The notes beneath the pieces were generated by a model, which was given only the letters and a program-made list of their open reading frames with translations, did not search any database and was not told the origin of the DNA. A stretch of 64,000 nt of DNA from Candidatus Nanoarchaeia archaeon (lineage in GTDB: Archaea > Nanobdellota > Nanobdellia > SCGC-AAA011-G17 > DATDVL01). Shown one piece after another: positions 12,633 to 63,470 of this stretch; position 1 is the stretch's first letter; each line of letters starts with the position of its first letter. Location of the stretch: contig DATDVR010000005.1 in NCBI GenBank assembly GCA_035289925.1, positions 45,692 through 109,691 of the forward strand. The letters are read 5' to 3'. The translations under genes were made by a program, and so were the position numbers.

Positions 12633-13940
12633 CTAGTTTCCTACAACTTCTTTAATCTTCTGCAACAATTCAATGCTTTTAGGCTGCTTTGACAGCTCTT
12701 TAGTCCTTTCCTTAATAACTTCATCTTCCATTATCAAATTAATAAAATCCATTATTCTTGCATTTTTGTTGTCCAAAGCTTCTACAGCATCCATACTTGA
12801 AAGCTTATTGCAAAAAGGACAAATTGGCTTGTCTTCCAATAAAACTTTATGGCAGCTTATACACTTCTTTAGCTTCTTGATTCCATTTGTTCTGTCTAAA
12901 ATGCCTTGACTTTCGAGTAAAGCATTATTTGCATCAGCAGAAACTACATGGCTATAAGTGCTTAACTGCGAACTGTCGAGTGTCCAGCCAAAATAAGCTT
13001 TAGCTTGCTGTTCCCCAATTATTTTATTGGCTAATAAATGTGAAACCCTGCTATGTCTAAACAGATGATTGTAAACTCTCTTATTTATCCCTGCTCTTGC
13101 TGTTAACCTCTTGATTGTCTTTGTAAAGCTTGCGTAACCTAACTTCTCGCCCCTGTTCCTATCTTTGCTTTTATGGCTTATTTCTACAACCCATAAAGGA
13201 CTATCAGCTTTTGGAACTGGATGATGCTGCAGCCAAGCATCAATGTAAGGAGCAGACATTATAGCAATTACAGTTCGTTGACCTGTTTTTCCATTCAAAT
13301 CAATCTCATAAACAGAGTTTTTCTTTCCTTTTGCTTCATATTCTTTTCTTGTTAGGTTCTTAATTTTCAGATTGCCAACTTCGCTAATCCTAGCCCCAGT
13401 TTCATACAGCACAGAAAGAAAGGCTTTATGTTGGATGTTTGTTGCAGCTTCTATAATCCTTGAAACTTCTTCTTCTGTCAAGATGTCAGAAGCAGCTATC
13501 TTTTTCTGATTTTTCTTCTTTATGTAAGTGTTAATCCATTCTACATTTTCAGGATAATCTTTTCTATTGAAAGCTTTGTCTCTGAAAGTAAGCCATCTTC
13601 CAAATTTCTTTAAGATTACTTTGAACTTGGCCTTTGTGTCCTCGCTGTAAAGTTTACCTAATGGAGTTTTGCCTTCTTCTATTCCAATAATTATGTTTTC
13701 ATAGTCCTGTTTTGTAAGCTTGTCAAAGTCTTTTTTAACCCATTTGTTAGAAATAGTAATCAAGCTGTCAATATACTTGATTCTTGTTGCAAATTCAAGG
13801 TTTTCAACTATTGTGCATTTCCTTTCAAATTCTAAAATCAAGTCCTTGTTTACCTTACTTATGCTTGAAGCTTGCAATCTTTCTTTAACTCTTTCATAGA
13901 TGCCTTTGTAATTGTATAAGTCCTGTTCTTGCTTTGCCAT
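12633..13940 (-). CDS. tyrosine recombinase/integrase with a C-terminal zinc ribbon
   Basis: ETGARISEV (Arg box), HLFRHSRVSHL (HxxR) and the LSTYSHV catalytic-Tyr region, plus CISCH...CPFC. It sits adjacent to tRNA-Ser. The start is trimmed to MAKQEQ (ATG 13940-13938). Confidence 0.85.
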   Translation of the reverse strand: MAKQEQDLYNYKGIYERVKERLQASSISKVNKDLILEFERKCTIVENLEFATRIKYIDSLITISNKWVKKDFDKLTKQDYENIIIGIEEGKTPLGKLYSEDTKAKFKVILKKFGRWLTFRDKAFNRKDYPENVEWINTYIKKKNQKKIAASDILTEEEVSRIIEAATNIQHKAFLSVLYETGARISEVGNLKIKNLTRKEYEAKGKKNSVYEIDLNGKTGQRTVIAIMSAPYIDAWLQHHPVPKADSPLWVVEISHKSKDRNRGEKLGYASFTKTIKRLTARAGINKRVYNHLFRHSRVSHLLANKIIGEQQAKAYFGWTLDSSQLSTYSHVVSADANNALLESQGILDRTNGIKKLKKCISCHKVLLEDKPICPFCNKLSSMDAVEALDNKNARIMDFINLIMEDEVIKERTKELSKQPKSIELLQKIKEVVGN

Positions 13941-14003
13941 ATCATTTACCTGTCCTTTCGTGCTTAAAAAACTGATACTAAAAGATATGGACAAAGAATA
14001 ATA

Positions 14004-14087
14004 CGCCGCGACTGGGATTTGAACCCAGATATCCTTTCGGAAACAGGATTAGCAATCCTGCGCGATACCAGGTTATGCGATCGCGGC
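14004..14087 (-). tRNA. tRNA-Ser (anticodon GCU), class II with a long variable arm
   Basis: The reverse complement folds as acceptor GCCGCGA/TCGCGGC, anticodon stem CAGGA/TCCTG with loop TTGCTAA, variable arm TTTCCGAAAGGATAT, and T-arm CTGGG-TTCAAAT-CCCAG. The discriminator is G. Confidence 0.85.
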
Positions 14088-14129
14088 ACAGCCTAAACAG
14101 GATATAAATGATTTATAAAACTTTAGCTT

Positions 14130-14667: not shown

Positions 14668-15732
14668 CTAAGCAAAAATACAATTCTGCATTTTTATTGT
14701 GCTTGTTTCTTCATTATTGCTAATGAGAGACTTCAGGGCAGAAGCTTCTACCCCTGATTTAAGCATGTAGCTTAAACCCCGTTTGCTTATATTAAAGGCC
14801 GCATTCCTATCTGCATTATCTTCATATCTACAATTATTGCAGGAAAACCAATTGCCTTTTCTGCTTCCTATACTGCCACAGACAGTACAGGTTTTTGAAG
14901 TATATGCTTCATTCACAAAGATAACCGGCACTCCTTTTTCCTTTGCCTTATATTCAATATATTTATTAAATTTGTAATAAGAAAAATTATTTAGTTTTCT
15001 ATTAAATTTTCTTCCTTTATTTTTATTCAAATATTTTAATTCTCCAACTACAACTGCAGATTTGGTATTATAAGCAAGGTTTATAATATCTTTAGATATT
15101 TTATGTAATCTGGAGTTTATCTTGTTCTTTTCTTTGTTTCTTATCTTCTTAATTTGCTTTATATAATTGTTCTTTCCTAACTTTTTTCTTAGGTAATAAT
15201 ACTTACCCCTAATCTCTTTGATTTCCTTTCCTAAGAAAAATGTTTTTCTTGTTTTTAAGTCAACCATTACAATTGGATTTCTTAATCCTAGGTCCAAACC
15301 AAGAATATTTTTTGGCTGATAAACTTTAGGCTCTTCAATTTCAATCACAAAATGAATGTAATATTTATTATTCTTTCTTACCAAGTAAGAGTCTTTTAAT
15401 TCATATTTTTCTGGCAAAGGCTGGTGAAATTTCAACGGCAACCAGATTCCCTGTCCTTTTCTTCTGCTATTAGGGATCTTAATCCAGTTTTTAGTCAGTT
15501 TAGTATCCCGAGTTCTAAACCAATTTTTAATGAACCTTGTCTGCAAAGGTAAAGGATATTCTAGATAATTAACAATTTTTTGCTTGTGTCCTTTAGCAGC
15601 TTTAAAAGCGCTTAATAATCCCTTATCTACCCCAAATATCATCCACCATTGATAGTTAAAATAATCATTATCTAACAGTTCTTTTTTTATATTTGTTAGT
15701 CCTATTATAGAAGCTTTAATTGTTTTCTGCAT
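14668..15732 (-). CDS. tnpB: TnpB (IS200/IS605-family OrfB, RuvC-like RNA-guided nuclease family); no tnpA nearby
   Basis: ILGLDLGLRNP (RuvC-I), the VVVGELKYL glutamate region, and the zinc ribbon CTVCGS...CNNCRYEDNADRNAAFNI (RuvC-III). Confidence 0.85.
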   Translation of the reverse strand: MQKTIKASIIGLTNIKKELLDNDYFNYQWWMIFGVDKGLLSAFKAAKGHKQKIVNYLEYPLPLQTRFIKNWFRTRDTKLTKNWIKIPNSRRKGQGIWLPLKFHQPLPEKYELKDSYLVRKNNKYYIHFVIEIEEPKVYQPKNILGLDLGLRNPIVMVDLKTRKTFFLGKEIKEIRGKYYYLRKKLGKNNYIKQIKKIRNKEKNKINSRLHKISKDIINLAYNTKSAVVVGELKYLNKNKGRKFNRKLNNFSYYKFNKYIEYKAKEKGVPVIFVNEAYTSKTCTVCGSIGSRKGNWFSCNNCRYEDNADRNAAFNISKRGLSYMLKSGVEASALKSLISNNEETSTIKMQNCIFA

Positions 15733-15870
15733 CAGATAATTTAATAAGTAATTTTCATTTATAAGTCTTCATAAGGTGTTTGTCACGTGTCTATATTCTG
15801 CAGCATATAATTTATGTGCAAAGTCATTTTTGTAGAAAGGTTTAAAAAGCTACTTTGAGACTTAAAAATT

Positions 15871-16025
15871 AGCAGGGTGGAACAGCTAGGAGATACTTGA
15901 CAAAAAGTACCTAAATGTTCGTCACTTGACGTATGAGTCAGCGAAAAGGGCTCATAAGCTGTTTGGAGACACCCGAAAATAATACAATATCGGGAAGGTC
16001 GGAAGTTCAAATCTTCCCCCTGCTA
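15871..16025 (+). tRNA. initiator tRNA-Met (CAU) gene interrupted by four putative BHB introns (15893-15915, 15924-15947, 15957-15970, 15978-15996; boundaries +/-1 nt)
   Basis: A perfect 3' half (GGAAG-TTCAAAT-CTTCC, CCCTGCT, A) matches the acceptor strand AGCAGGG 155 nt upstream. Removing the four segments gives a 75-nt cloverleaf with all stems Watson-Crick, A1:U72, and GGG/CCC closing the anticodon stem. Each segment has bulge-helix-bulge-like flanks (see findings). Confidence 0.7.
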
Positions 16026-16592
16026 CTCGATTACTTTATCATTTATTAAATCTAAAACTCTTCTAAGTAGAACATTACTTATATCAAAATGGCAAACACC
16101 ATTACCTTCTTTAGTTAGATTGTGATTATAATCTCTTACTACAAACATTTCAATTGGGAACTCTAAATTATTAGACCAATATTTTTTAACAATTTCAGGA
16201 TCATTTTTAAAGTGATGAATTTGAAAACACCTACCTTTTATTTCATCTTTCAATAGCAAACCTGCCTTTTCTATTTCAGTAAATACTTTTTTTAAAAACA
16301 ATGGCTTTTTATTAGTTATATTAAATCTATAGTAAGCCTTATTCTTTATACTACTCAACCCTTCTGCTTTAAAGAAGCCAAGAACCCAACAGAAACTAGG
16401 GGTTAAATAAATATATCTTGGAAATATTTTTTGAAATTTTCTTTTAGTGATATGGTTTGTTGCTATATAGTAGATTAAAATTTTGTTTCTTGATAGAATC
16501 TCACCTTCTAATTTATATTGCCTTCCTGTTGACCAATTTGGATAAGTATATTTATCTTTTATCAATTCTAATAAGTCAATTTTTTGAGGCAT
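16023..16592 (-). CDS. free-standing LAGLIDADG-like protein (single motif)
   Basis: WVLGFFKAEGLSS fits the LAGLIDADG motif, with Glu at the catalytic acidic position. It is followed by the typical 'f.I....k..l..v...i...g' segment. TTTATAAA lies 23 nt upstream of the ATG. Confidence 0.45.
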   Translation of the reverse strand: MPQKIDLLELIKDKYTYPNWSTGRQYKLEGEILSRNKILIYYIATNHITKRKFQKIFPRYIYLTPSFCWVLGFFKAEGLSSIKNKAYYRFNITNKKPLFLKKVFTEIEKAGLLLKDEIKGRCFQIHHFKNDPEIVKKYWSNNLEFPIEMFVVRDYNHNLTKEGNGVCHFDISNVLLRRVLDLINDKVIE

Positions 16593-16754
16593 AAATATTA
16601 AAAAGCAACTTTTCTTTATAAACCTTCACAGGGCGGTTGTCGCATGTCCATAATAATTTCCGAAACCACCGAAAGATTTACGGAAAATGGTTCGTATAAA
16701 ACATAAAAAACTAACATAGAAATCTTTTTAAAGCCTTAATCTAAAATTTAAACA

Positions 16755-17507
16755 ATGAATGTGTGGGGATACTCAATAATTAGTGTCGTAATAATAAGTC
16801 TGCTTTCTTTCATAGGAATTTTTACATTAGGAATAAAGATTAACCAGCTAAACAAAATCTTGCTCTACTTGGTCAGCTTCGCAGCAGGAGCTTTGTTAGG
16901 AGATGTTTTTTTCCATCTAATGCCAGAAATTACTGAAGAAATTGGCTTTACAATAAAAGTTTCATTGTACATACTAGCAGGAATAGGAGTTTCATTCATT
17001 GTTGAAAAAATAGTAAGATGGAGACATTGCCATGTTCATGAAGCAGCACATCAGCACAAAGTACATCCTTTTGCAGTCATGAATTTATTTGGAGATTCTG
17101 TGCACAACTTCATTGATGGAATGATTATTGCTGCAGGATACTTGACAAGCGTTCCAGTAGGAATTGCAACAACCCTGGCAGTTTTTTTGCACGAAATACC
17201 TCAGGAGATAGGGGATTTTGCAATACTTTTACACGGCGGATTTTCAAAAACAAAAGCATTGTTTTATAATTTTATAACAGCATTGACAGCAGTTCTTGGA
17301 GCTATAATTGTTCTTCTCTTAAACCAAAAAATAGCAGGATTATCTGTTTTCTTCAATGCTTTTGCAGTCGGCGGATTTATTTATATTGCAGGTGCAGACT
17401 TGATACCTGAGATGCACAAGGAAGTTTCAGCAAGAAAATCATTGATGCAGTTTATGTTTCTAGTTTTAGGAGTTGCTGTTATGGCAGTTTTGTTGCTGTT
17501 AGAGTAA
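16755..17507 (+). CDS. ZIP-family divalent metal (Zn) transporter
   Basis: Polytopic, with a His-rich loop (HCHVHEAAHQHKVH) and the signature HEIPQEIGDFAILL. Confidence 0.85.
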   Translation: MNVWGYSIISVVIISLLSFIGIFTLGIKINQLNKILLYLVSFAAGALLGDVFFHLMPEITEEIGFTIKVSLYILAGIGVSFIVEKIVRWRHCHVHEAAHQHKVHPFAVMNLFGDSVHNFIDGMIIAAGYLTSVPVGIATTLAVFLHEIPQEIGDFAILLHGGFSKTKALFYNFITALTAVLGAIIVLLLNQKIAGLSVFFNAFAVGGFIYIAGADLIPEMHKEVSARKSLMQFMFLVLGVAVMAVLLLLE

Positions 17508-17539
17508 GTTATTTAAACAATCAAAAGTTAGAAATTTAT

Positions 17540-17857
17540 ATGGGAAATCCTTTTTTATTGCAAGGTTGTCTAAGACTAGATTTAAAAGACATACCAAAAC
17601 CACTTGAAATAGGAAAAAAATATAAATTTTACAAAGAAGGGCATAGACTATATATGATTAAAGTTCCAATGGATATATGGACTTCTGATTGGAAAGCGCT
17701 AGGAAGATGTGTAGTTTTAGAATATACGGTGGGTAAAGGCAAGACTGAGGGGACTTTTGTTGTGGTACAAATTTTCGACAAAAAACAATCTGATGAGGTA
17801 ACAAAGACTTATGTAGCTGATTTAGAAGTTGAAAAAATATTAAAAAACTTAGAATGA
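17540..17857 (+). CDS. hypothetical protein
   Basis: ORF only. Confidence 0.4.
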   Translation: MGNPFLLQGCLRLDLKDIPKPLEIGKKYKFYKEGHRLYMIKVPMDIWTSDWKALGRCVVLEYTVGKGKTEGTFVVVQIFDKKQSDEVTKTYVADLEVEKILKNLE

Positions 17858-17858
17858 T

Positions 17859-18260
17859 CTATACTAAACTCAATCCAGTTATCCTTGAAAAATCTTTAAT
17901 ATTATAAGTTTTTACAGAAAAATTGTTTTTAAGAGCTGTTACACCAATCAACAAATCTTTAAGCTCCATCATTTTTCCATTCTTCTCTAATTTAGCTGCC
18001 ATCTCTCCAGCTTTTATAGCCACTTCATCATCAGGCAGCAATATCTCTACTTTTTGCTTTAGAAATTCTATAGCTAAAATATCTTTGATCTTGCCAAGCT
18101 TGAAAGCTCCATAATAAAGCTCAAAAAGATTAATTGAAGTAGTAGCCAAAGAAGAAAAATTCTCTATTTTATTTATAAAGTCAACTTCTTCCTTCCTATT
18201 TCTCAATAAATTAACAAGAAAATCAGTATCTAAACATATCCTATCTTCCAATTTCTCCAC
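17859..18260 (-). CDS. vapC: PIN-domain toxin (VapC-like)
   Basis: ICLDTDFLVNLL is an N-terminal acidic PIN motif. The protein is ~130 aa and the downstream acidic residues fit. Confidence 0.8.
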   Translation of the reverse strand: MEKLEDRICLDTDFLVNLLRNRKEEVDFINKIENFSSLATTSINLFELYYGAFKLGKIKDILAIEFLKQKVEILLPDDEVAIKAGEMAAKLEKNGKMMELKDLLIGVTALKNNFSVKTYNIKDFSRITGLSLV

Positions 18261-18469
18261 CCTTTTCTTATATCTTTAAGCAATTTTCTAGCTTGCTTAT
18301 CACTTATATCCCAAGCACCAGCTAGATCACTTAACTTACCAGAAGACCTTAATTTAGATATAGCTTCATCTATAGATATACTTCTTTTTTCTTCTATTTG
18401 CACTTTTCCAGCAATCTCGCATAACCATTCATAGTTTTGCTTGCTTATCTTAACAGTTTTGGCTTCCAT
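18230..18469 (-). CDS. vapB: VapB-type antitoxin
   Basis: A small protein directly upstream of the PIN gene and overlapping it. It carries the archaeal antitoxin pattern (TVKISKQNYEWL...SIDEAISKL...LAGAW). Confidence 0.6.
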   Translation of the reverse strand: MEAKTVKISKQNYEWLCEIAGKVQIEEKRSISIDEAISKLRSSGKLSDLAGAWDISDKQARKLLKDIRKGWRNWKIGYV

Positions 18470-18535
18470 AGTTACTTAGTGGTAAAAGTAGTTTATAAAC
18501 TTTTCTATTCAAAATTCGCAAATCTTCTAGAATAA

Positions 18536-19699
18536 TTAAAAATTCTTCAGCTCTGCCTTCTTCAAAGCATCTTCAATCAATTTTTCATCTTCAATCTTTG
18601 CTTCAAAAGACTCAATTGTCTTCAAATCAGACTTTGTTGCTGGATGCTCTGCCACAAACAAAGAGCAGCAGTCTGAGTAAGGCATAATAGAGATATCGTA
18701 AGTTCCTAATTTTTTTGATTCTCTTATAACATCAACCTTGTCTTCGCCCATCAAAGGAGCTAAAACAGGATAAGAAGTTGCTGAATAAATGACTGAAATA
18801 TTGTCCAAAGTCTGAGAAGCTACTTGTGCCAATGAATCGCCAGTAACAAATGCCTTGCAGCCTTCTTTCTTCAAAATTTCTTCTGCAATTCTTAACATGT
18901 ATCTCCTGTAAACTATCATTCTGTATTCACCAGGAACTTTTTTAATGATTTCATGCTGCAAATCCTTGAAAGGAATCAAGAACAACTTAGCTTGGCCTTG
19001 ATATTCTGCTATTTTTTTTACTAATAATTCTACTTTTTCCTTTACTGCGTCCTTTGCTGTAGTGAAATTGTAAAAATGGACAAATGTTAATTGGCAACCT
19101 CTTTTAATCATTCTTATCGAAGCTACAGGGGAATCTATTCCGCCAGAAATCAATGAAACTAATTTTCCTGAAGTAGAAGTTGGCAATCCGCCCATAGATT
19201 GCAGCTTTTCTAGATAAATATAAGCGTTCTGATTTACAACTTCAATGTTAAAATTGACATCAGGCTTTTCTAAATCAACTTTAAAGCCTAAATTTTCAAC
19301 AACGTGCGAGCCAATTATCTGATTTAATTCCAATGAAGTGTACTTGAACTCATTTTTATTTGCATTCTTAGATATAATTCTAAAAACTTTCTTATCTTGA
19401 GCCTTGGCTAATTTTAAAACAATATCTTTTATCTTTTCCAAGTCCAAAGAAGTCTTCTCTGCAAATGAGAAATTTATTATTCCTGGTATTTTTCTTAATT
19501 TTTCTGCAACCTTTTCCTGGTCTGCCTGAGAATTCAATACAATTAAAAGCCTGCCATACAATCTTTTGACAGTTTGAGCTTCTTTTAACAAGGATTTCTT
19601 GATATTTTCGCACAGGACTCTTTCATAGTATTCTCTATTGCCTTTTTTTAGTGCAATTTCTCCATAATGAACTATTATGTTTTCCATATCAAAAACCAA
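18536..19699 (-). CDS. thiI: tRNA 4-thiouridine synthase ThiI (THUMP + PP-loop, no rhodanese domain)
   Basis: HYGEIALKKGNR, the PP-loop SGGIDSPVA, and TGDSLAQVASQT. Confidence 0.9.
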   Translation of the reverse strand: MVFDMENIIVHYGEIALKKGNREYYERVLCENIKKSLLKEAQTVKRLYGRLLIVLNSQADQEKVAEKLRKIPGIINFSFAEKTSLDLEKIKDIVLKLAKAQDKKVFRIISKNANKNEFKYTSLELNQIIGSHVVENLGFKVDLEKPDVNFNIEVVNQNAYIYLEKLQSMGGLPTSTSGKLVSLISGGIDSPVASIRMIKRGCQLTFVHFYNFTTAKDAVKEKVELLVKKIAEYQGQAKLFLIPFKDLQHEIIKKVPGEYRMIVYRRYMLRIAEEILKKEGCKAFVTGDSLAQVASQTLDNISVIYSATSYPVLAPLMGEDKVDVIRESKKLGTYDISIMPYSDCCSLFVAEHPATKSDLKTIESFEAKIEDEKLIEDALKKAELKNF

Positions 19700-20096
19700 A
19701 TACTTTTATTAAATCAGTAGTAGAGAAAACTTTTACTTTGGATTGTAGTTTTAAATTTTTATCATTTGACCATAAAGGATAATTCAACTTTAAAGCAAGA
19801 GCCATGAATGGAATGTCTTCAGGATGTGTAACTAATTCTTTTGCCTTTTCTTTAAATTCCTTGAAATCTTCTTTAGATATTATTTTTATATTTAATAGAA
19901 ATATACTTATTAGTTGATTGAAACTTTGTTCATCAATTTCAGCTCTTAATATAATCTCTTCTTTATTATTTAGGGTCTCTTCAATGATATTTTCTGGTGC
20001 GTATAAAGTTATCCCTGGTAAGCAAATTATTTCCCTAGATTTTCCATTGCTAATTAGTGAAGAAATCAAACAATTAGTATCTACAATTAAATTCAT
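19689..20096 (-). CDS. vapC: PIN-domain protein (VapC-like)
   Basis: MNLIVDTNCLISSL... and ...PEDIPFMALA are PIN-like. The 3' end overlaps the thiI start by 11 nt. Confidence 0.7.
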   Translation of the reverse strand: MNLIVDTNCLISSLISNGKSREIICLPGITLYAPENIIEETLNNKEEIILRAEIDEQSFNQLISIFLLNIKIISKEDFKEFKEKAKELVTHPEDIPFMALALKLNYPLWSNDKNLKLQSKVKVFSTTDLIKVFGF

Positions 20097-20327
20097 TTAC
20101 CATCCCTGCGCTTGATATTTCTTCCACATGGATTTTTTTATCTTATTCCCTATTTCAAAAGCATCTTTTTCTGTCAGCTTTGACTTTGCTGCAATTGCAT
20201 TTAAAACTGCTAATTGCCCTACTTTAATTCTGATAGCTTCCCTTGCTACTTCAGACCAATTAATAAATTTGGACTTGTCCATTTCTTTTTTTAGATCTTC
20301 TGGCACTGATAAAGTTATAGTTGGCAT
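20097..20327 (-). CDS. antitoxin-like small protein (RHH/VapB-type)
   Basis: PTITLSVPEDLKKEMDK...NWSEVAREAIR is a typical archaeal antitoxin N-terminus. It abuts the PIN gene with no gap. Confidence 0.6.
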   Translation of the reverse strand: MPTITLSVPEDLKKEMDKSKFINWSEVAREAIRIKVGQLAVLNAIAAKSKLTEKDAFEIGNKIKKSMWKKYQAQGW

Positions 20328-20437
20328 TTTTACCTCCGATATTTATTATATTTAAAACTGTGTAAATATTTAATCTATATAAATCTTTCTATTTTGAAAT
20401 TAAGAAGTTTTAAAAACGTTGTTAATAATAAGATTTT

Positions 20438-21376
20438 ATGAAAGAATTTCCTAGGTTAAAGAATAGGCTGATATTGGCGCCAATGGAAGAAGTTTCAGGA
20501 CTGCCCTTCAGATTGCTCTGCAGAAGATATGGAGCTGCTTTAACTTACACTGAAATGGTTTCAAGCCATGGAGTTAGAAATGATAATAAATCTACTTTAA
20601 AGCTTATTGAAACAAATGAAGAAGACAAGCCTGTAGGAATCCAGTTTTGCGGGCAATTAAGCAATGTAATATTAGAAGCTGCCAAAAAAGTTGAGAAAAA
20701 TTTTGACTTAATAGACATAAATATGGGATGCCCCAGCCCAAACATAATAAAACAAGGAGCAGGCTCTGCATTGTTAAAAAGGAAAAACAAGATTAAAGAA
20801 ATTATAAAGACTTTATCTAGTAATTTAAGCATCCCAGTAACTGCTAAAATTAGATCAGGATATTCTAAAGATGAGGCTGTTGAACTTGCAAAAGTAATTG
20901 AGAAAGCTGGAGCGGCTGCGGTTGCAATACATGCTAGATTAACAATACACAAAAGTAGTGTTAAAGCTGACTGGTCTAAAATAAAAAAAGTCAAAGAAAA
21001 TGTTTCTATTCCTGTAATTGGCAATGGGGATGTTTTTACAGCTAAAGATGCTGAAGAGATGCTGAAACACTGCGACTATGCCATGATTGCAAGAGGAGCT
21101 ATAAGAAATCCTATGATATTCAAGGAAATATTGCATTATTTTAAAACTGGAGAAACGCTAAAAATAAAACCTGAAGATAAAATTGACATGTTTTTTGATT
21201 ATCATAAATTGACAAAGAAATATCCTTATGGCGGCATTGTAATTCTAAGAAAAAGAGCTCAAGACTTTACTCATGGATTGATTAATTCAACTAAAATAAG
21301 AAATAAGATAACATATGTAAAGACAGAGGAAGAGCTTCTAGATTTAATGGAAAAATATAAGAAATCTCTAGTATAG
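20438..21376 (+). CDS. tRNA-dihydrouridine synthase (Dus family, TIM barrel)
   Basis: LAPMEEVSGLPFR, IDINMGCPSP and the AIHARL/IGNGD motifs. Confidence 0.85.
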   Translation: MKEFPRLKNRLILAPMEEVSGLPFRLLCRRYGAALTYTEMVSSHGVRNDNKSTLKLIETNEEDKPVGIQFCGQLSNVILEAAKKVEKNFDLIDINMGCPSPNIIKQGAGSALLKRKNKIKEIIKTLSSNLSIPVTAKIRSGYSKDEAVELAKVIEKAGAAAVAIHARLTIHKSSVKADWSKIKKVKENVSIPVIGNGDVFTAKDAEEMLKHCDYAMIARGAIRNPMIFKEILHYFKTGETLKIKPEDKIDMFFDYHKLTKKYPYGGIVILRKRAQDFTHGLINSTKIRNKITYVKTEEELLDLMEKYKKSLV

Positions 21377-21454
21377 ATGTTACTTATTAGTGATAATAAA
21401 TAGAAGGGTTTATAAAGGTAAATTACTCGATATAGGCATAGTAAGAGGATTAAA

Positions 21455-22321
21455 ATGCAAATGCAGCAAAGTATTGGAATGAGATTGGAACAGAGGTTAG
21501 AGTTAAAACCTACAAATCCACATGGTCCTATTAAAAATCCAAGAATTACTAAGATGGCTTTTGAAGGAGAACTAGATGAGCCATTTTCTTTAGAAGAAAC
21601 AATAAATGATAGATGTTATACAACAAAAATAGCATACTCTGTAGAAAGGGAATTGCTGAAAAGATGGAAATATGCTGGTGGATGGGAGAAATTTTTAGAT
21701 TCTCCTTTATTAGCTCATGCAGATGCTGCAATAGTTCTAGCGGAGGATTATGATGCTGTTGTAGGTATAAAAGAAGCTGGATTAGCCTATGCAGACATAT
21801 TTAGAATAATGGGTTTTCCAGTTGAAGAGATAGATTTTTCGCATCATAAAAAAAATATGACTTGGCCAGTGATGTCTAAAGAAAGCATAGAAAAATTAAA
21901 AGACAAAGAAGGAGTAATTTTAGTAGATATTGATGTAGTTACTGGAAAAAGTGTAAAAACGGTTTATGATTTCTTAACATCAAATGGAATCAAAGTAAAA
22001 GCACTATATTTGGGATTATCAAAGTGGTCTGGCATGAAAATGAAAACAACTAGTGCATGCGGATATAGTTGGAAAGAACCTTCTTTAGGACAGAAAGGAA
22101 TTGGTTTTAAAGGATTTTGGAAAAAAGCTGAAGGTGGATTAGTAGTAATGTCGAAAAGGGAAGCATATCAAGAAAATATTATACCTACTGGATTAGTAGT
22201 GTATGGATCAAATGCCAAACTGGACGCGCCAAATCACCATTGCAAAGCGATAGATCGCAAAGCAATGAAATCAGCTGCAAAAAGAGTTGCACAACATTTA
22301 CTTAAATTGGAGAAAAAATGA
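21455..22321 (+). CDS. phosphoribosyltransferase-like protein
   Basis: A PRPP-binding-type motif GVILVDIDVVTGKSV after a hydrophobic strand. The remainder is not recognised. Confidence 0.45.
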   Translation: MQMQQSIGMRLEQRLELKPTNPHGPIKNPRITKMAFEGELDEPFSLEETINDRCYTTKIAYSVERELLKRWKYAGGWEKFLDSPLLAHADAAIVLAEDYDAVVGIKEAGLAYADIFRIMGFPVEEIDFSHHKKNMTWPVMSKESIEKLKDKEGVILVDIDVVTGKSVKTVYDFLTSNGIKVKALYLGLSKWSGMKMKTTSACGYSWKEPSLGQKGIGFKGFWKKAEGGLVVMSKREAYQENIIPTGLVVYGSNAKLDAPNHHCKAIDRKAMKSAAKRVAQHLLKLEKK

Positions 22322-23502
22322 CTGATAAAATATTACTTTCAACAGATATTGGATCTGATGTAGATGATGCTCTAGCTTTGCTTACAATGCTAAATTCTGG
22401 GATGAATTTGAGAGCAATTTATACTACAAATGGGGACGTTAACTCAAGAAGTTATATTGCAAAACATATGATAAATTTATCTGGTAGAGATATTGCAGTT
22501 GCAAGGGGCGAGGCAAAACCATTGACTCATGGAAAAGATCCTTATTTTTTCTACGAAAATTGTCATATTGATGATTCTTTTGAGGATAAAGAAGAGAGCG
22601 AAATCGCTAGAGAAATTAAATATTTGCCTGTAGAAAGAGCAGGTATTGAACCAAAGGGGGTAGATGAGTTAGTTGAGAGACTAAGTAAAGAAAAACAGGT
22701 TGTATTTAGTATAGCCCCTCTTACAAATATCGCTCGAGTTATATTAGAACATCCTGAAGCTGCTAAAAACATTTTACAACTTTATGTAATGGGTTGTCGC
22801 TTTCCAACCAAAAGTTCACCAATATCTGAACTAGAACACAATTTGGGCTACGATACAGAAGCTGCAAAGATTGTTTTCAATTCCGATGTTCCAATAACCG
22901 TAGTTCCTAGCAATTTATGTGATCAATTTAGAATGCCAATCGATATTATCGGACAATTAGAAAGTGATGTTGGTAAATATGTTAAAAAAATGGCTGATGC
23001 CGCAGTAGGACTTGCTACTTGCATTAACCTTAATAGAACCCAAATAGGCAAATATCCCTTAACCGCTTTATTAACTCAAATGACTATTGTACCGCCAGAG
23101 GTTTTATTAGAATTGCCAAGAAAAGATATGGACAGATTGCTAGAAGATACACGTAAAAATATTGTTAATTTGAGTGATTTTTATTGGCCAGCAATGAATC
23201 CTGAAGAGTATATGCAGGTTTATAGAAAAATAATAGATAACCTTAAACATGCAAGTTGGAATAAAGATACATATAAGCTTGTTGCTGAAAAATTAGAAAG
23301 TTTGATTCCTAGAGATTTGTCAATATCTGATGTGTATGTCCCATATTGTTATGCCAACAGAGATAGAGTGAGAACTGTAAAGGGAAATATTGGTGTTACA
23401 AGCAGAGGAGAATCTTTTATAAGAAAGGGAAATAAACATACAATAGTTACTGAAATAGATTTCGAACACTTTAAAGAATTCTTGAGGCAAAACATTAAGT
23501 AA
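22318..23502 (+). CDS. inosine/uridine-preferring nucleoside hydrolase family protein with a long C-terminal extension
   Basis: The N-terminal Asp cluster LSTDIGSDVDDALAL is the IUNH signature. A 4-nt overlap with the PRT-like gene. Confidence 0.7.
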   Translation: MTDKILLSTDIGSDVDDALALLTMLNSGMNLRAIYTTNGDVNSRSYIAKHMINLSGRDIAVARGEAKPLTHGKDPYFFYENCHIDDSFEDKEESEIAREIKYLPVERAGIEPKGVDELVERLSKEKQVVFSIAPLTNIARVILEHPEAAKNILQLYVMGCRFPTKSSPISELEHNLGYDTEAAKIVFNSDVPITVVPSNLCDQFRMPIDIIGQLESDVGKYVKKMADAAVGLATCINLNRTQIGKYPLTALLTQMTIVPPEVLLELPRKDMDRLLEDTRKNIVNLSDFYWPAMNPEEYMQVYRKIIDNLKHASWNKDTYKLVAEKLESLIPRDLSISDVYVPYCYANRDRVRTVKGNIGVTSRGESFIRKGNKHTIVTEIDFEHFKEFLRQNIK

Positions 23503-23597
23503 TCTTTAAATCTTCCGGTAATTAAGACAAACTGCCTGTGAAAGTGATAGTTTCAGCTATAGAAACCTTTAAATATAAGGTTACCTATTAGGTAACT

Positions 23598-24200
23598 ATG
23601 TATAACGAGATTCCAAACTATGGATTAAGAGCCTATGCATTATTTTTTTCAAGGCATGGCTTGAAGGAAGAGTTTACACAGTCAGACTTAGATTGGATAG
23701 TTGGGCAAAGCATGAGAAAAAAAATCTTCTCCTTATTATTGAATAATGGGTGGATAAAAAAATCTTCTCCTAATTCATACAAATGCATAAACCCAGAAAT
23801 AATCTTAAAAGGCTTATTGGAGTTTAAGGTTCCAAGGATAATCAAGGAAGCCAAGAAGCCTTATGCATTTACAGGATTGTCTGCTGTTGAAATATGGTCA
23901 GACTACTCATATATCCAAAGAGGAAGAGAAAAATCCCCCTATTACATAAAAATTTTAAAGAGAGATTTCAAGTATTGGAGAAACTTCTTTAATCATTACA
24001 GAATTCCTAATTATGTTAATGCTGGTTCAACAATTGGCGAATTTATCATATTAGAACCTGTTGAAAAAATGGATTTTACTGAAAAAGACGGAATAAAAGT
24101 TGAAACATTAAAAGAAACTGAAAGAATAGCAAAAGCAAATAGTTTTTATGCCTATCCTTATAATTATATAAAGGAGAAATATGGAACAATTACAGCTTAG
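23598..24200 (+). CDS. AbiEi-like wHTH antitoxin/regulator candidate
   Basis: N-terminal wHTH-like FTQSDLDWIVGQSMRKKIFSLLLNNGWIKK..NSYKCI. A 20-nt overlap with the downstream nucleotidyltransferase-like gene. Confidence 0.4.
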   Translation: MYNEIPNYGLRAYALFFSRHGLKEEFTQSDLDWIVGQSMRKKIFSLLLNNGWIKKSSPNSYKCINPEIILKGLLEFKVPRIIKEAKKPYAFTGLSAVEIWSDYSYIQRGREKSPYYIKILKRDFKYWRNFFNHYRIPNYVNAGSTIGEFIILEPVEKMDFTEKDGIKVETLKETERIAKANSFYAYPYNYIKEKYGTITA

Positions 24201-24864
24201 AGAAAAAGAAATATTCGAGATGTTGAAAAAAATAAAGAAGCGAAAATTTGTAGTTATCGGAGGATATGCAGTTAATGCTTATACATTACCCAGATTTTCT
24301 GTCGACTGTGATATAGTAATAAAAGACAATGATGAATTGAAAAATATAGAGAATAATTTATATTATTTGGGTTATAAAAAAGTAAAAAATGCTTCTGAAA
24401 CTCCTTATGATGGCAAATTTGAGAGATATGAAAAAGAACTCGCGTCAAGCTTCAAAGTTAGTGTTGATATTCTCATAGGAGAAATCTTTGATAGGCAGAC
24501 AAATGCTAAATTCTCTGCAGAATGGGTTTTTAGCAACTCAAAAATAAGGAATCTAAGAGGCAAAACCATTGAAGAAGAACTAAAAATTAATATTATAAAC
24601 GTTGAAGCATTATTTACAATGAAGCTTATCAGCTGCAGATCAACAGATATCAGGGATCTTTTTCTTTTAGTTAACTTGATAAAGGATAAAGCTTGGATTA
24701 AAAAAGAAGTCTCACAAAGATATGACTTCAAGGATAGACTTTCAAGATTAATTAATGAAATAAAGTCTAAGCAGTTCAAAGATGGTCTACAAGGAGTCTT
24801 CGGATTAATTGATGAAAAAGTATTTGAAAGAAATAAGAGCATGATATTAGAGCTAGAAAAATAA
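24181..24864 (+). CDS. AbiEii/AbiGii-like nucleotidyltransferase toxin candidate
   Basis: FVVIGGYAVNAYTLPRFSVDCDIVI resembles the 'lkGGtal......R.S.DiDf' motif of DUF1814/AbiEii. Confidence 0.5.
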   Translation: MEQLQLREKEIFEMLKKIKKRKFVVIGGYAVNAYTLPRFSVDCDIVIKDNDELKNIENNLYYLGYKKVKNASETPYDGKFERYEKELASSFKVSVDILIGEIFDRQTNAKFSAEWVFSNSKIRNLRGKTIEEELKINIINVEALFTMKLISCRSTDIRDLFLLVNLIKDKAWIKKEVSQRYDFKDRLSRLINEIKSKQFKDGLQGVFGLIDEKVFERNKSMILELEK

Positions 24865-56117: not shown

Positions 56118-56126
56118 TAAAATAGG

Positions 56127-63038: not shown

Positions 63039-63470
63039 TTAGATATCTACAATAACACGAGCTTTCCAATATTTTTTAAGTTTTTTTACTTCAAATAAAT
63101 GCAGTGTCACAGCCTTAACATCATTTCCTAGTTTATGCTTCTTTGGATTGATTTTTTCCCCTTTAATTTCTGCTTCAAGATGATAAGTCTTATTTTTCTC
63201 TGTAATTTTTACCTTAACTTTGTCAAATATAGAGTAATCCTTGTCTTTCAAGAAAATAATTTCATCTAAAAAATCAAACAACAAGTTGTCAATTTTCTCA
63301 TTTTTTAACTTCACTTTCCAGGTTTTCTTAGAAGTTACGGTCTTCAAGTCTACCTGCATGTTGAACAAAGCCAAAGCTGCATTAGTGAATAGCTCATTCA
63401 AGTCTTTACCAAAAGCATCGAAAGCTATGTCTGCTACTGCTATATCTTCTAAATACTCAAATTTTTTCAT
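63039..63470 (-). CDS. archease
   Basis: MKKFEYLEDIAVADIAFDAFGKDLNELFTNAALAL and the C-terminal KAVTLH..EV are typical of archease. Confidence 0.8.
   Translation of the reverse strand: MKKFEYLEDIAVADIAFDAFGKDLNELFTNAALALFNMQVDLKTVTSKKTWKVKLKNEKIDNLLFDFLDEIIFLKDKDYSIFDKVKVKITEKNKTYHLEAEIKGEKINPKKHKLGNDVKAVTLHLFEVKKLKKYWKARVIVDI

What the first reader, a model, noticed from the sequence alone, without database searches (positions are those of the whole stretch)
15871..16025. Initiator tRNA-Met gene apparently split by four bulge-helix-bulge introns
A flawless tRNA 3' half (T-arm GGAAG/TTCAAAT/CTTCC, acceptor CCCTGCT, discriminator A; 16001-16025) has its complementary acceptor strand AGCAGGG 155 nt upstream. 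A cloverleaf forms only if four segments are removed:
- 15893-15915: 23 nt, in the D-loop.
- 15924-15947: 24 nt, in the anticodon stem at 28/29.
- 15957-15970: 14 nt, at the canonical 37/38 position.
- 15978-15996: 19 nt, in the variable region at 44/45.

The 75-nt product is AGCAGGG TG GAAC AGCTAGGAGT GTTC G TCGGG CTCATAA CCCGA AGGTC GGAAG TTCAAAT CTTCC CCCTGCT A. Every stem is Watson-Crick and the anticodon is CAU. It also has A1:U72 and three G:C pairs closing the anticodon stem, which are archaeal initiator hallmarks.

Each segment sits in a BHB-like fold:
- Intron 1: outer helix AGC/GTT, central helix TAGG/CCTA, 3-nt bulges AGA and AAT, inner helix TACTT/AAGTA.
- Intron 2: central TTCG/CGAA, bulges TCA and AAG, inner TGAC/GTCA.
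- Intron 3: the anticodon stem as outer helix, central CTC/GAG, bulges TAA and ACA.
- Intron 4: central CCCG/CGGG, bulges AAA and AAG, inner ATA/TAT.

Cutting after the second bulge nucleotide gives exactly these junctions. Introns 1 and 2 share ACTTGAC, hinting at intron duplication or transposition. To my knowledge multi-intron archaeal tRNAs carry up to three introns, so four would be unusual.
Basis: partly seen in the sequence, partly recalled or inferred. Interest (0 to 1): 0.8.

Follow-up and report, generated by a model that had tools for sequence, protein, structure and literature searches.

The report
Initiator tRNA gene with four introns
This is very probably a working gene for the start-codon (initiator) tRNA of a tiny DPANN archaeon, interrupted by four short introns that standard tRNA finders miss; relatives carry the same gene with zero to seven such introns.

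Summary
Removing 15893-15915, 15924-15947, 15957-15970 and 15978-15996 from window 15871-16025 (+) gives a 75-nt tRNA-Met(CAU) that ARAGORN calls. ARAGORN and Rfam find nothing in the unspliced locus.

A homology-only spliced alignment to uninterrupted orthologs recovers the same four junctions. Each insertion is precisely absent in at least one relative.

Every junction sits in the canonical bulge-helix-bulge (BHB) register. Three central helices have 4/4 pairs and one has 3/4. Over 35 introns from nine genes, 91% of central-helix positions pair in that register, against 24-45% in any slid register. The helix is kept by compensatory changes.

Ten spliced products pair at 100% of cloverleaf stem positions, and 10 of 21 pairs show double changes. 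A BRE/TATA-like box lies about 30 nt upstream.

The host is a Woesearchaeota/Nanoarchaeia-type DPANN archaeon from groundwater.

Four introns exceeds the "up to three" stated in the 2021 tRNAscan-SE 2.0 paper. It is not unprecedented, because a 2024 supplement lists four-intron Asgard tRNA genes.

Relatives of this gene carry five (L253/L254) and seven (L250) BHB-framed insertions, and I found no report of that.

No RNA data were available, and the splicing endonuclease was not in the window.

The parts
15834..15848 (+). BRE/TATA-like promoter box (agaaaggTTTAAAAA). The TATA element starts 30 nt upstream of tRNA position 1.
   Evidence: Read directly from the sequence. The same aaaNNTTTAAAAA-type box lies about 30-33 nt upstream of the orthologous genes in L248, L249, L247, L112, L103 and L092, with a variant in L251. 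Assigning it as an archaeal promoter is an inference from established knowledge of archaeal BRE/TATA promoters.
15871..15892 (+). Exon 1 (22 nt): acceptor 5' strand AGCAGGG, positions 8-9, D-stem 5' strand GAAC, and the D-loop up to 20a.
15893..15915 (+). Intron 1 (23 nt) in the D-loop at 20a/21. It has a strict hBHBh' motif: H TAGG/CCTA, bulges AG|A and AA|T, inner helix TACTT/AAGTA, outer helix AGC/GTT.
   Evidence: Orthologous introns lie at the same site in L248, L249, L251, L250 and L253, with a compensatory change in H (CAGG/CCTG). The site is empty in L112, L103, L247, L086 and L092. RNAfold gives the H helix P = 0.54-0.82 in the primary transcript.
15916..15923 (+). Exon 2 (8 nt): T21, D-stem 3' strand GTTC, G26, T27, C28.
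15924..15947 (+). Intron 2 (24 nt) in the anticodon stem at 28/29. It has a relaxed HBh' motif: H TTCG/CGAA (H is the D-stem 3' strand plus G26), bulges TC|A and AA|G, inner helix CT(T)GAC/GTCAG, and no outer helix.
   Evidence: Orthologs at 28/29 in L112 and L103 have TCCG/CGGA, a compensatory change. Orthologs at 29/30 occur in L249, L250, L247 and L253. The site is empty in L248, L251, L086 and L092. RNAfold does not favour this helix (P < 0.1).
15948..15956 (+). Exon 3 (9 nt): G29-G31 and anticodon loop C32-A37, including the CAT anticodon.
15957..15970 (+). Intron 3 (14 nt) at the canonical 37/38 position. H is CTCA/GGAG (3 pairs plus an A.G mismatch), the bulges are TA|A and AC|A, and the anticodon stem is the outer helix.
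   Evidence: Close orthologs in L112 (AGCTGTTCTGAGAC) and L103 have a perfect CTCA/TGAG. The site is empty in L248, L086 and L092. The full motif needs the anticodon stem, which introns 2 and 4 disrupt. P = 0.91 for the three pairs after those two are removed.
15971..15977 (+). Exon 4 (7 nt): A38, anticodon-stem 3' strand CCCGA, A44.
15978..15996 (+). Intron 4 (19 nt) in the variable region at 44/45. It has an HBh' motif: H CCCG/CGGG (H is the anticodon-stem 3' strand), bulges AA|A and AA|G, inner helix ATA/TAT.
   Evidence: (shuffle p = 0.0008). Introns lie at 44/45 in L251 and L250, and at 43/44 in L112, L103, L247 and L253. The site is empty in L248, L249, L086 and L092. RNAfold gives P = 0.98 in the primary transcript.
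15997..16025 (+). Exon 5 (29 nt): GGTC of the variable loop, T-arm GGAAG/TTCAAAT/CTTCC, acceptor 3' strand CCCTGCT, and discriminator A73. No CCA is encoded.
16026..16050 (+). T-rich 3' trailer (ctcgattactttatcatttattaaa), a likely transcription stop. It overlaps the 3' end of the converging ORF 16023-16592(-).
   Evidence: T-rich trailers follow most orthologs. The terminator role is inferred.
63039..63470 (-). Archease gene. Archease is the known cofactor of the RtcB tRNA-splicing ligase. It is the only splicing-machinery component found in the window.
   Evidence: Pfam PF01951, E = 5e-39. Its link to this tRNA is an inference from established knowledge of RtcB/archease.

Best explanation
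Window 15871-16025 (+) is the functional initiator tRNA-Met gene of a Woesearchaeota/Nanoarchaeia-type DPANN archaeon. It is interrupted by four short introns of 23, 24, 14 and 19 nt at positions 20a/21, 28/29, 37/38 and 44/45. These introns are of the archaeal bulge-helix-bulge (BHB) class.

Proposed mechanism, with each step marked as shown or inferred:

1. Transcription. It starts from a BRE/TATA promoter about 30 nt upstream. The promoter box is shown and conserved. Transcription itself is inferred.

2. Cleavage. At each intron, four exon bases just upstream of the 5' splice site pair with four bases near the 3' end of the intron. This leaves two 3-nt bulges on opposite strands. The pairing is shown in sequence and supported by covariation. 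The archaeal splicing endonuclease EndA would cut after the second base of each bulge. This step is inferred from established BHB biochemistry, and the junctions fit it exactly.

3. Ligation. RtcB with archease would join the exons. This is inferred. An archease gene is present in the window.

4. Order of splicing. The four BHBs cannot coexist:
- The central helix of intron 2 uses the D-stem 3' strand.
- The central helix of intron 4 uses the anticodon-stem 3' strand.
- Intron 2 splits the anticodon-stem 5' strand.

This conflict is shown directly by the sequence. The likely order is therefore introns 1 and 4 first, since their motifs form in the primary transcript. Intron 2 would follow. The canonical 37/38 intron would go last, once the anticodon stem can form. 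This order is inferred. It also keeps the 7-9-nt micro-exons tethered by base pairing.

5. Finishing. End trimming and CCA addition complete a 75-nt tRNA with A1:U72, A11:U24 and G29-31:C39-41.

Evolutionary setting. The four sites are shared with relatives. The gene belongs to a lineage-wide family of intron-riddled initiator tRNA genes carrying 0, 2, 3, 4, 5 and 7 introns, with ongoing gain, loss and 1-nt sliding.
For: Product:
- ARAGORN and Rfam do not see the unspliced gene.

Independent definition of the junctions:
- A BHB-blind spliced aligner against uninterrupted orthologs returns the same four introns.

Presence and absence among relatives:
- L086 and L092 have the uninterrupted 75-nt gene.
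- L248 lacks introns 2, 3 and 4, and L112 and L103 lack intron 1. The junction is exact in each case.

BHB geometry:
- Window central helices have 4, 4, 3 and 4 of 4 pairs.
- 20 of the first 30 introns are 4/4 against a positional null of 2.4% (binomial p = 1e-25; Fisher p = 1.3e-4 for the window alone).
- Over 35 introns, 91% of positions pair in the canonical register against 24-45% when either strand is slid by 1-4 nt.

Covariation in the central helix:
- TAGG/CCTA versus CAGG/CCTG.
- TTCG/CGAA versus TCCG/CGGA.
- TCGT/GCGA versus CCGT/GCGG.
- GAAC/GTTC versus GGAC/GTCT.

Selection on the exons:
- In ten spliced products, 100% of 210 stem cells are paired.
- 10 of 21 pairs show changes on both sides, and 0 of 500 shuffles reach this.
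- Slid controls give 40-55% paired.

Expression signals and stability:
- The promoter box is conserved at a fixed distance.
- The locus is identical in three independent assemblies, and the flanking gene is found on 13 contigs.

No competing copy:
- There is no second initiator copy or remnant in the 64-kb window, including the ancestral position next to rnhB.

Host:
- Neighbouring proteins are 100% identical to proteins that NCBI labels Candidatus Nanoarchaeia archaeon.

Literature context:
- DPANN EndAs carry an L3 loop that is associated with increased tRNA gene disruption.
- DPANN tRNA sets, including a Rifle Woesearchaeote, are incompletely predicted (PMC5829648).
- Peripheral introns are removed before the 37/38 intron in C. 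merolae (PMC3728597).
Against: - No RNA evidence of any kind was available: no spliced species, intermediates or circular introns.
- EndA and RtcB were not found in the window (Pfam), so the enzyme type and its specificity in this organism are unknown.
- RNAfold never favours the central helix of intron 2 (P < 0.1 in every splicing state). An alternative 8-bp helix between intron 2 (TATGAGTC) and the anticodon loop appears in the minimum-free-energy fold.
- Intron 3 has only 3 of 4 central pairs, where its orthologs have 4. Its predicted helix probability is unstable across contexts (0.91 or 0.01).
- Introns 2 and 4 lack an outer helix, so they need an endonuclease that accepts relaxed HBh' motifs.
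- Whether the rest of the genome holds another initiator gene could not be checked.
Confidence: 0.88

Rival explanations
1. The locus is a decaying initiator-tRNA pseudogene that accumulated insertions, and the working initiator tRNA is encoded elsewhere in the genome.
For: - Standard finders do not call the locus.
- Intron 3 has lost one central-helix pair relative to its orthologs.
- The BHB of intron 2 is thermodynamically disfavoured.
- The gene sits in a region rich in mobile elements, with TnpB and an integrase nearby.
- The rest of the genome could not be searched.
Against: - All five exons are intact, and every stem of the product is Watson-Crick paired.
- Stem changes relative to nine orthologs are all compensated.
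- The insertions fall exactly at BHB-competent sites shared with other species, and their central helices covary with the exons.
- The promoter box is retained.
- No other copy exists in 64 kb, nor at the ancestral rnhB-adjacent position.
- Eight other species keep interrupted versions in the same state, which is not expected for independent pseudogenes.
Confidence: 0.05
2. The gene is real, but one or more of the four insertions (most likely intron 2) is removed at different junctions or by a different route than canonical EndA cleavage. Alternatively, splicing may be inefficient and act as a throttle on initiator tRNA supply.
For: - The central helix of intron 2 has P < 0.1 in all RNAfold states, and a competing 8-bp helix with the anticodon loop is predicted.
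- Introns 2 and 4 lack outer helices.
- Orthologous introns sit 1 nt apart (28/29 versus 29/30, and 43/44 versus 44/45), so the register is evolutionarily labile.
Against: - Only the proposed junctions give a 75-nt product with a complete anticodon stem.
- In the window, a 29/30 junction is impossible because the exon base there is A, not G.
- The canonical register is the only one with 4/4 pairing.
- H/H' covariation at this very site (TTCG/CGAA versus TCCG/CGGA) argues that the helix is used.
- The inserts, at 14-24 nt, are far too small for self-splicing group I or II introns.
Confidence: 0.06
3. The resemblance to a split tRNA arises by chance or from an assembly artefact.
For: The window is an AT-rich metagenomic contig, and short helices are easy to find by eye. 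About 2% of arbitrary positions give a 4/4 central helix.
Against: - The locus is identical in independent assemblies from different samples.
- The spliced-alignment score is 143 for the window and 137-211 for relatives. Wrong strands and unrelated DNA score 40-56.
- The combined statistics are far beyond chance.
Confidence: 0.01

Closest known systems
Multi-intron tRNA genes of Thermoproteales (Pyrobaculum, Thermofilum, Caldivirga): Sugahara et al. 2007/2008, Fujishima et al. 2010, as summarised in PMC8450103 and PMC4090602
   Same: - Several short BHB introns in one tRNA gene.
- Non-canonical positions such as the D-loop, anticodon stem and variable region.
- Relaxed HBh'/hBH motifs.
- Some motifs form only after another intron has been removed.
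- Hints of intron transposition.
   Different: - Those genes have at most three introns (PMC8450103).
- The hosts are GC-rich hyperthermophilic Crenarchaeota with an (alpha-beta)2 EndA carrying the L1 loop.
- Here the host is an AT-rich (33% GC) groundwater DPANN archaeon. Its lineage is reported to have alpha4-type EndA with an L3 loop (PMC5829648).
- The gene here has four introns, and relatives have up to seven.
Intron-rich tRNA genes of the Asgard lineages Atabeyarchaeia and Freyarchaeia (Valentin-Alvarado et al. 2024, PMC11291895, Supplementary Data 4)
   Same: - Most tRNA genes there are interrupted, and over half have multiple introns.
- Individual genes with four introns are tabulated, including Freyarchaeia Arg-TCT and Ile2-CAT.
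- A three-intron initiator tRNA-Met is listed.
- Some introns were missed by tRNAscan-SE.
   Different: - It is a different superphylum, and the high intron load there is genome-wide.
- In this window the other two tRNA genes (Ser, Trp) are uninterrupted, and it is the initiator gene that is heavily fragmented.
- No Asgard gene in the part of the table I read has more than four introns.
Split tRNA genes of Nanoarchaeum equitans and its heteromeric EndA (Randau et al. 2005, cited in PMC12397907 and PMC5829648)
   Same: - The same broad lineage (DPANN, Nanoarchaeota in the GTDB sense).
- tRNA genes are disrupted at BHB-forming sites.
- The endonuclease accepts non-canonical BHBs.
- From memory, the initiator tRNA is among the split genes in N. 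equitans.
   Different: - N. equitans encodes the halves at separate loci, and they are joined in trans.
- Here all five exons are colinear behind one promoter and would be spliced in cis.
Highly disrupted nuclear tRNA genes of the red alga Cyanidioschyzon merolae (Soma et al. 2013, PMC3728597)
   Same: - Up to three BHB-type introns scattered over the D-arm, 37/38 and the T-loop.
- RT-PCR showed that peripheral introns are removed before the 37/38 intron, which matches the order inferred here.
   Different: - The host is a eukaryote, and some of its genes are also permuted.
- The maximum there is three introns per gene.
Non-canonical tRNA introns and the epsilon2 EndA of ARMAN-2 / Ca. Micrarchaeum (Fujishima et al. 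2011, PMC3239211)
   Same: It is an ultrasmall DPANN archaeon whose endonuclease has broad substrate specificity for relaxed BHB motifs at non-canonical positions.
   Different: - It is a different DPANN lineage with a different enzyme architecture.
- Genes with four or more introns are not described there.

Membership tests
Archaeal BHB (EndA-dependent) tRNA intron | A 4-bp central helix is flanked by two 3-nt bulges on opposite strands at the exon-intron boundaries (hBHBh', or relaxed HBh'/hBH). | tested here: met
   Central-helix pairs are 4, 4, 3 and 4 of 4 in the canonical register. Intron 1 has a strict hBHBh' motif, introns 2 and 4 have HBh', and intron 3 has hBH with one mismatch.
Archaeal BHB (EndA-dependent) tRNA intron | Symmetric cuts after the second base of each bulge yield exons that join into a canonical cloverleaf. 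| tested here: met
   The product is a 75-nt tRNA-Met(cat) according to ARAGORN. The same junctions come from homology-only spliced alignment.
Archaeal BHB (EndA-dependent) tRNA intron | The motif is conserved through compensatory change in orthologous introns. | tested here: met
   H/H' covariation is seen at sites 15/16, 20a/21, 28/29 and 29/30. Inner helices differ in sequence but stay paired.
Archaeal BHB (EndA-dependent) tRNA intron | The host encodes a splicing endonuclease (EndA) able to cut relaxed motifs, and an RtcB-type ligase. | tested here: inconclusive
   No EndA or RtcB was found among 61 window ORFs scanned with Pfam. Archease, the RtcB cofactor, is present at 63039-63470.
Archaeal BHB (EndA-dependent) tRNA intron | Introns are actually excised in vivo, shown by spliced RNA or by linear or circular introns. 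| not testable with these tools
   No transcriptome data could be queried.
Archaeal initiator tRNA-Met | CAU anticodon in a 7-nt loop. | tested here: met
   The loop is CTCATAA. ARAGORN places anticodon cat at position 36 of the linear sequence.
Archaeal initiator tRNA-Met | An A1:U72 terminal pair (elongators have G1:C72). | tested here: met
   AGCAGGG...CCCTGCT is invariant A:U in all ten orthologs. That A1:U72 marks archaeal and eukaryotic initiators is established knowledge.
Archaeal initiator tRNA-Met | Three consecutive G:C pairs (29-31:39-41) close the anticodon stem. | tested here: met
   GGG/CCC is invariant in ten orthologs (columns 31-33 with 41-43). The 5' strand is assembled from exons 2 and 3.
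Archaeal initiator tRNA-Met | A purine11:pyrimidine24 pair in the D-stem. | tested here: met
   The window has A11:U24. Orthologs have A:U or G:C (columns 11 with 26).
Archaeal initiator tRNA-Met | Charged with methionine and used for initiation. | not testable with these tools
   This requires biochemistry.
Split or permuted tRNA gene (N. equitans, Caldivirga or Thermofilum type) | Exons are encoded at separate loci, or the 3' part is encoded upstream of the 5' part. | tested here: not met
   All five exons are colinear within 155 nt behind one promoter box.
tRNA pseudogene or integrase attachment-site remnant | A truncated or mismatched tRNA copy without a promoter, usually a partial duplicate next to an integrated element. 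| tested here: not met
   All stems are complete and paired, the promoter is retained, and no partial duplicate exists in the window. The true att-type repeat in the window belongs to tRNA-Ser.
TnpB-associated omega RNA (IS200/IS605) | The RNA is encoded on the tnpB strand and overlaps or follows the 3' end of tnpB. | tested here: not met
   The locus lies upstream of the tnpB start, on the opposite strand. It is conserved in relatives that lack tnpB.
Self-splicing group I or group II intron | A catalytic RNA core of hundreds of nucleotides. | tested here: not met
   The inserts are 14-24 nt, and no Rfam intron family matches.

The most novel reading that the evidence does not exclude
The window gene is one state of what may be the most intron-dense tRNA gene family yet seen.

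Among ten related Woesearchaeota/Nanoarchaeia genomes, the single initiator tRNA gene carries 0, 2, 3, 4, 5 or 7 BHB introns. These are spread over ten insertion sites: 4/5, 15/16, 20a/21, 28-30, 37-39, 43-45, 53/54, 59/60 and 64/65.

The family shows lineage-specific gains, precise losses and 1-nt sliding. Neighbouring tRNA genes, by contrast, are intact.

If the seven-intron gene (L250: eight exons of 4-18 nt in 247 nt) is truly spliced, it sets a new upper bound for tRNA gene fragmentation. It would also give a natural series for working out how BHB introns are gained and lost, and how a DPANN endonuclease and ligase handle micro-exons in order.
Probability: 0.6. Interest if true: 0.78.

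Novelty: new member of a known kind. Interest (0 to 1): 0.6.

Why it matters
1. Annotation. The essential initiator tRNA is invisible to ARAGORN and Rfam at this locus. Published work already notes that DPANN genomes yield incomplete tRNA sets. Genes like this one explain such gaps, and they caution against reading missing tRNAs as biology.

2. Range. The gene extends multi-intron BHB tRNA genes to Woesearchaeota-type DPANN archaea. Four introns in the window equals the highest count I could find on record. Relatives carry five and seven.

3. Evolution. Closely related genomes differ by precise presence or absence of introns at the same sites. This gives a natural series for studying BHB intron gain, loss and sliding, an open question since the Thermoproteales studies.

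4. Mechanism. The BHBs are mutually exclusive and the exons are only 7-9 nt long, which predicts an obligatory splicing order. It also predicts an endonuclease with broad specificity. Both predictions can be tested directly.

Tried and rejected
- **Loose 3'-exon pattern.** My first pattern, GGTCNNNNGTTCAAATCNNNNCCCTGCTA, was too permissive. Many were bacterial initiator tRNAs with the same anticodon arm. Four archaeal loci (L086, L092, L103, L112) were salvaged by screening.
- **Rfam at E <= 10 on the whole window.** Not even the intact 3' half is reported, so Rfam gives no information on fragmented tRNAs.
- **Viral-contig scan with an intron-3 pattern.** No matches.
- **Synteny through RNase HII.** This worked for L247 only. 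The closest rnhB relatives (L243-L246) have no tRNA nearby.
- **Synteny through the converging 189-aa ORF.** This worked for L248-L251 and L253/L254. L252 has no tRNA there, with spliced-alignment scores of 40-43.
- **RNAfold as a test of the BHBs.** It supports introns 1 and 4, gives context-dependent results for intron 3 and never supports intron 2. I treat it as inconclusive rather than negative, because 3-4-bp helices between bulges are poorly modelled and are stabilised by the enzyme.
- **Recent duplication of intron 2 into intron 1.** The shared ACTTGAC has p = 0.03, and TTGACAAAA shared with L112 intron 2 has p = 0.004. I set this aside because intron 1 has positional orthologs in five relatives.
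- **Second or ancestral initiator copy upstream of rnhB.** None found.
- **EndA or RtcB in the window.** Not found. Only archease is present.
- **Omega RNA of the adjacent TnpB, tRNA-Ser att remnant, or group I/II intron.** All rejected; see the membership tests.
Full report
**1. The observation**

The sequence at 15871-16025 (+) is as quoted. ARAGORN calls it tRNA-Met(cat), and its minimum-free-energy fold is a cloverleaf.

The unspliced locus is invisible to ARAGORN. It is also invisible to Rfam, both at gathering thresholds and at E <= 10. A custom scan looked for a T-arm followed by an acceptor strand whose complement lies within 400 nt upstream. In 64 kb it finds only the two known tRNAs (Ser-GCT at 14003-14088 and Trp-CCA at 56125-56200, both uninterrupted) and this locus.

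**2. Geometry of the junctions**

In the canonical archaeal bulge-helix-bulge (BHB) motif, the 5' exon ends with a 4-nt helix strand (H) plus two bulge bases. The intron ends with the complementary strand (H') plus two bulge bases. This follows from established BHB biochemistry.

In exactly that register the window introns show the following:

| Intron | H/H' | Pairs | Inner helix | Outer helix |
|---|---|---|---|---|
| 1 | TAGG/CCTA | 4/4 | 5 bp | 3 bp |
| 2 | TTCG/CGAA | 4/4 | 5 bp with one bulged T | none |
| 3 | CTCA/GGAG | 3/4 | none | anticodon stem |
| 4 | CCCG/CGGG | 4/4 | 3 bp | none |

Shuffling each intron reaches the observed pairing in 2%, 6%, 26% and 0.05% of trials. Fisher-combined p is 1.3e-4.

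**3. Host**

The window has 33% GC. It matches scaffold_429 of an ENA assembly of SAMN03842437. The same locus is present, base for base, in two other assemblies.

Neighbouring proteins are 100% identical to NCBI entries labelled Candidatus Nanoarchaeia archaeon. Their homologs are labelled Nanoarchaeota or Woesearchaeota.

**4. Relatives**

My first pattern scans were too loose and were flooded by bacterial tRNAs. Screening the fetched loci gave four archaeal orthologs. Further orthologs came from contigs that encode homologs of two window genes. One is RNase HII, which abuts the tRNA in several relatives. The other is the 189-aa ORF that converges on the tRNA's 3' end.

A spliced aligner that uses only similarity to an uninterrupted reference gives the results below. 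Every product is a 75-nt tRNA-Met(CAU).

| Locus | Introns | Sites |
|---|---|---|
| L086 (Ca. Forterrea) | 0 | none |
| L092 | 0 | none |
| L248 | 2 | 15/16, 20a/21 |
| L251 | 3 | 20a/21, 37/38, 44/45 |
| L112 | 3 | 28/29, 37/38, 43/44 |
| L247 | 3 | 29/30, 37/38, 43/44 |
| window | 4 | 20a/21, 28/29, 37/38, 44/45 |
| L103 | 4 | 15/16, 28/29, 37/38, 43/44 |
| L249 | 4 | 15/16, 20a/21, 29/30, 37/38 |
| L253 = L254 | 5 | 20a/21, 29/30, 37/38, 43/44, 59/60 |
| L250 | 7 | 4/5, 20a/21, 29/30, 38/39, 44/45, 53/54, 64/65 |

Wrong strands and unrelated DNA score 40-56, against 137-211 for the genes.

Each window intron is precisely absent from at least one relative, which fixes its boundaries independently of any folding argument.

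**5. Are the insertions BHB introns?**

- Of the first 30 introns, 20 have 4/4 central pairs, 8 have 3/4 and 2 have 2/4. In the positional null, 2.4% have 4/4 (binomial p = 1e-25).
- With all 35 introns, 91% of central-helix positions pair in the canonical register, and 23 helices are perfect. Sliding either strand by 1-4 nt gives 24-45% paired and 0-2 perfect helices.
- H is exonic and H' is intronic, yet they covary: TAGG/CCTA versus CAGG/CCTG at 20a/21, TTCG/CGAA (window) versus TCCG/CGGA at 28/29, TCGT/GCGA versus CCGT/GCGG at 29/30, and GAAC/GTTC versus GGAC/GTCT at 15/16.
- Inner helices differ in sequence and length but stay paired.
- The first intron base is A in 25 of 35 introns, and the second-to-last base is A in 31 of 35.

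**6. Is the product under selection as a tRNA?**

On the alignment of ten spliced products, all 210 stem cells form standard pairs. Ten of 21 pairs show changes on both sides, and 0 of 500 shuffles reach this. Slid structures give 40-55% pairing.

Several covarying pairs have their two halves in different exons. A1:U72, G29-31:C39-41 and purine11:pyrimidine24 are kept throughout, as expected of an archaeal initiator.

An aaaNNTTTAAAAA box lies about 30 nt upstream of most genes, at 15834-15848 in the window. T-rich trailers follow the genes.

No second copy or remnant exists in the window. This includes the stretch upstream of rnhB (26146), where the gene sits in relatives.

**7. Mechanism and order**

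The sequence shows that the four BHBs cannot coexist:

- The H of intron 2 (positions 23-26) overlaps the D-stem 3' strand and the outer helix of intron 1.
- The H of intron 4 (positions 39-42) is the anticodon-stem 3' strand.
- Intron 2 splits the anticodon-stem 5' strand.

The full motif of the 37/38 intron therefore needs introns 2 and 4 to be gone.

RNAfold gives the following:

- The helices of introns 1 and 4 form in the primary transcript (P 0.54-0.82 and 0.98).
- The helix of intron 3 forms after introns 2 and 4 are removed (0.91 for its three pairs). This estimate is unstable.
- The helix of intron 2 is never favoured. A non-conserved 8-bp pairing of intron 2 with the anticodon loop competes with it.

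I infer the order 1 and 4, then 2, then 3. This order also keeps the 7-9-nt micro-exons tethered by pairing. It agrees with RT-PCR results in C. merolae, where peripheral introns go before the 37/38 intron (PMC3728597).

Cleavage by EndA and ligation by RtcB with archease are inferred. An archease gene lies at 63039-63470, but no EndA or RtcB is in the window.

Kaneta et al. 2018 report that DPANN EndAs carry an L3 loop associated with increased tRNA gene disruption. They also report that tRNA sets of DPANN genomes, including a Rifle Woesearchaeote, could not be completed, which implies unidentified disrupted genes (PMC5829648).

**8. Comparison with what is known, and novelty**

The kind is known: archaeal tRNA genes with multiple BHB introns. 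The tRNAscan-SE 2.0 paper states that archaeal tRNA genes contain up to three introns (PMC8450103). Supplementary Data 4 of Valentin-Alvarado et al. 2024, however, lists Asgard tRNA genes with four (PMC11291895).

The window gene is therefore a new member of a known kind. It equals the highest count on record, in a lineage (Woesearchaeota-type DPANN) and for an isotype (initiator) where I found no such report.

The five- and seven-intron relatives go beyond anything I could find. The library searched is incomplete, so this is absence of evidence only.

**9. Rivals**

- **Pseudogene.** Disfavoured by intact and compensated exons, the retained promoter, BHB covariation, and the same state in eight other species. 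It cannot be excluded without the whole genome and RNA data.
- **Alternative junctions or processing for intron 2.** Possible but unsupported.
- **Chance or assembly artefact.** Excluded.

**10. Limits**

- No RNA evidence was available.
- The enzyme was not identified.
- The whole genome was not searched.
- Junction choice among equivalent registers used the best central helix. This gave a small selection effect, because few introns had alternatives.
- The boundary of L247 intron 4 was set by hand.

Noticed in passing
L250 (CAYXPX010000011.1), minus strand, about 3074-3320: The orthologous initiator tRNA gene appears to be cut into eight exons of 4-18 nt by seven BHB-framed insertions, at 4/5, 20a/21, 29/30, 38/39, 44/45, 53/54 and 64/65. 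The gene is 247 nt and the product is a perfect 75-nt tRNA-Met(CAU). Central helices have 4, 3, 4, 3, 3, 4 and 4 of 4 pairs. Its TATA-like box lies about 60 nt upstream, and the leader takes part in the first BHB.
   Followed up: partly
L253 about 1743-1927 (minus strand) and L254 (same sequence from a second sample): This is a five-intron version of the same gene, with introns at 20a/21, 29/30, 37/38, 43/44 and 59/60 in the T-loop. It is 185 nt and identical in two independent assemblies.
   Followed up: partly
window 2499-2516 and 13997-14014; integrase at 12633-13994 (-): A 17/18 direct repeat (AATA[T/A]TACGCCGCGACTG) covers the 3' end of tRNA-Ser(GCT). Together with the tyrosine-integrase gene that abuts the tRNA, it brackets an integrated element of about 11.5 kb. 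The element has 30% GC and carries a ThsB-like TIR gene (4318-4794), a CcdA-like antitoxin and CDC48-like genes.
   Followed up: partly
window 14668-15732 (-): A TnpB / Cas12f-like (IS200/IS605 OrfB) gene starts 138 nt upstream of the tRNA on the opposite strand. The identical protein is found on 13 contigs. Relatives L248-L251 have other genes at this position, and L251 has a DDE transposase there.
   Followed up: partly
window 16023-16025; also L248-L251: The stop codon (TAG) of the converging 189-aa ORF (16023-16592, minus strand, no Pfam match) is the reverse complement of the last three tRNA bases (CTA). This 3-nt overlap is kept in the relatives.
   Followed up: partly
window 15932-15939 with 15949-15956: Intron 2 contains TATGAGTC, complementary to GGCTCATA (G30 to A37, including the anticodon). 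This 8-bp helix appears in the minimum-free-energy fold of the precursor and competes with the BHB of intron 2. It is not conserved in L112 or L103. Its significance is unknown.
   Followed up: no
window 29164-34170 (+): The SMC gene carries an intein with a LAGLIDADG domain (amino acids 47-563). The protein is 1668 aa, against about 1150 aa for SMC in relatives.
   Followed up: no
window 16026-26145: In L103, L112 and L092 the initiator tRNA abuts rnhB. In the window the two are 10 kb apart. The interval holds a ZIP transporter, ThiI, Dus and several toxin-antitoxin or defence-type genes (two PIN genes, AbiEii, and a nucleotidyltransferase pair), which suggests insertion or rearrangement.
   Followed up: partly
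window 60354-61781 (-) and 63039-63470 (-): Origin-associated protein genes OapC and OapB, plus a GTPase, lie next to each other, hinting at a nearby replication origin. An archease gene follows. No RtcB gene lies beside it within the window.
   Followed up: no
window 40089-52931 (-): A giant ORF of 4280 aa has five Laminin_G_3 (concanavalin-like) domains, typical of large DPANN surface proteins.
   Followed up: no
all 35 introns of the gene family (window, L103, L112, L247-L251, L253): The first intron base is A in 25 of 35 introns, and the second-to-last base is A in 31 of 35. Orthologous introns also sit 1 nt apart in different genomes (28/29 versus 29/30, and 43/44 versus 44/45), that is, apparent intron sliding.
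   Followed up: partly
L247 537-1322 (-) and L251 1371-2366 (+): In L247 a LAGLIDADG-like ORF lies between the tRNA and rnhB and overlaps the tRNA's 3' end. In L251 an RNA 3'-terminal phosphate cyclase (RtcA) gene lies just upstream of the 189-aa ORF homolog that abuts the tRNA.
   Followed up: no
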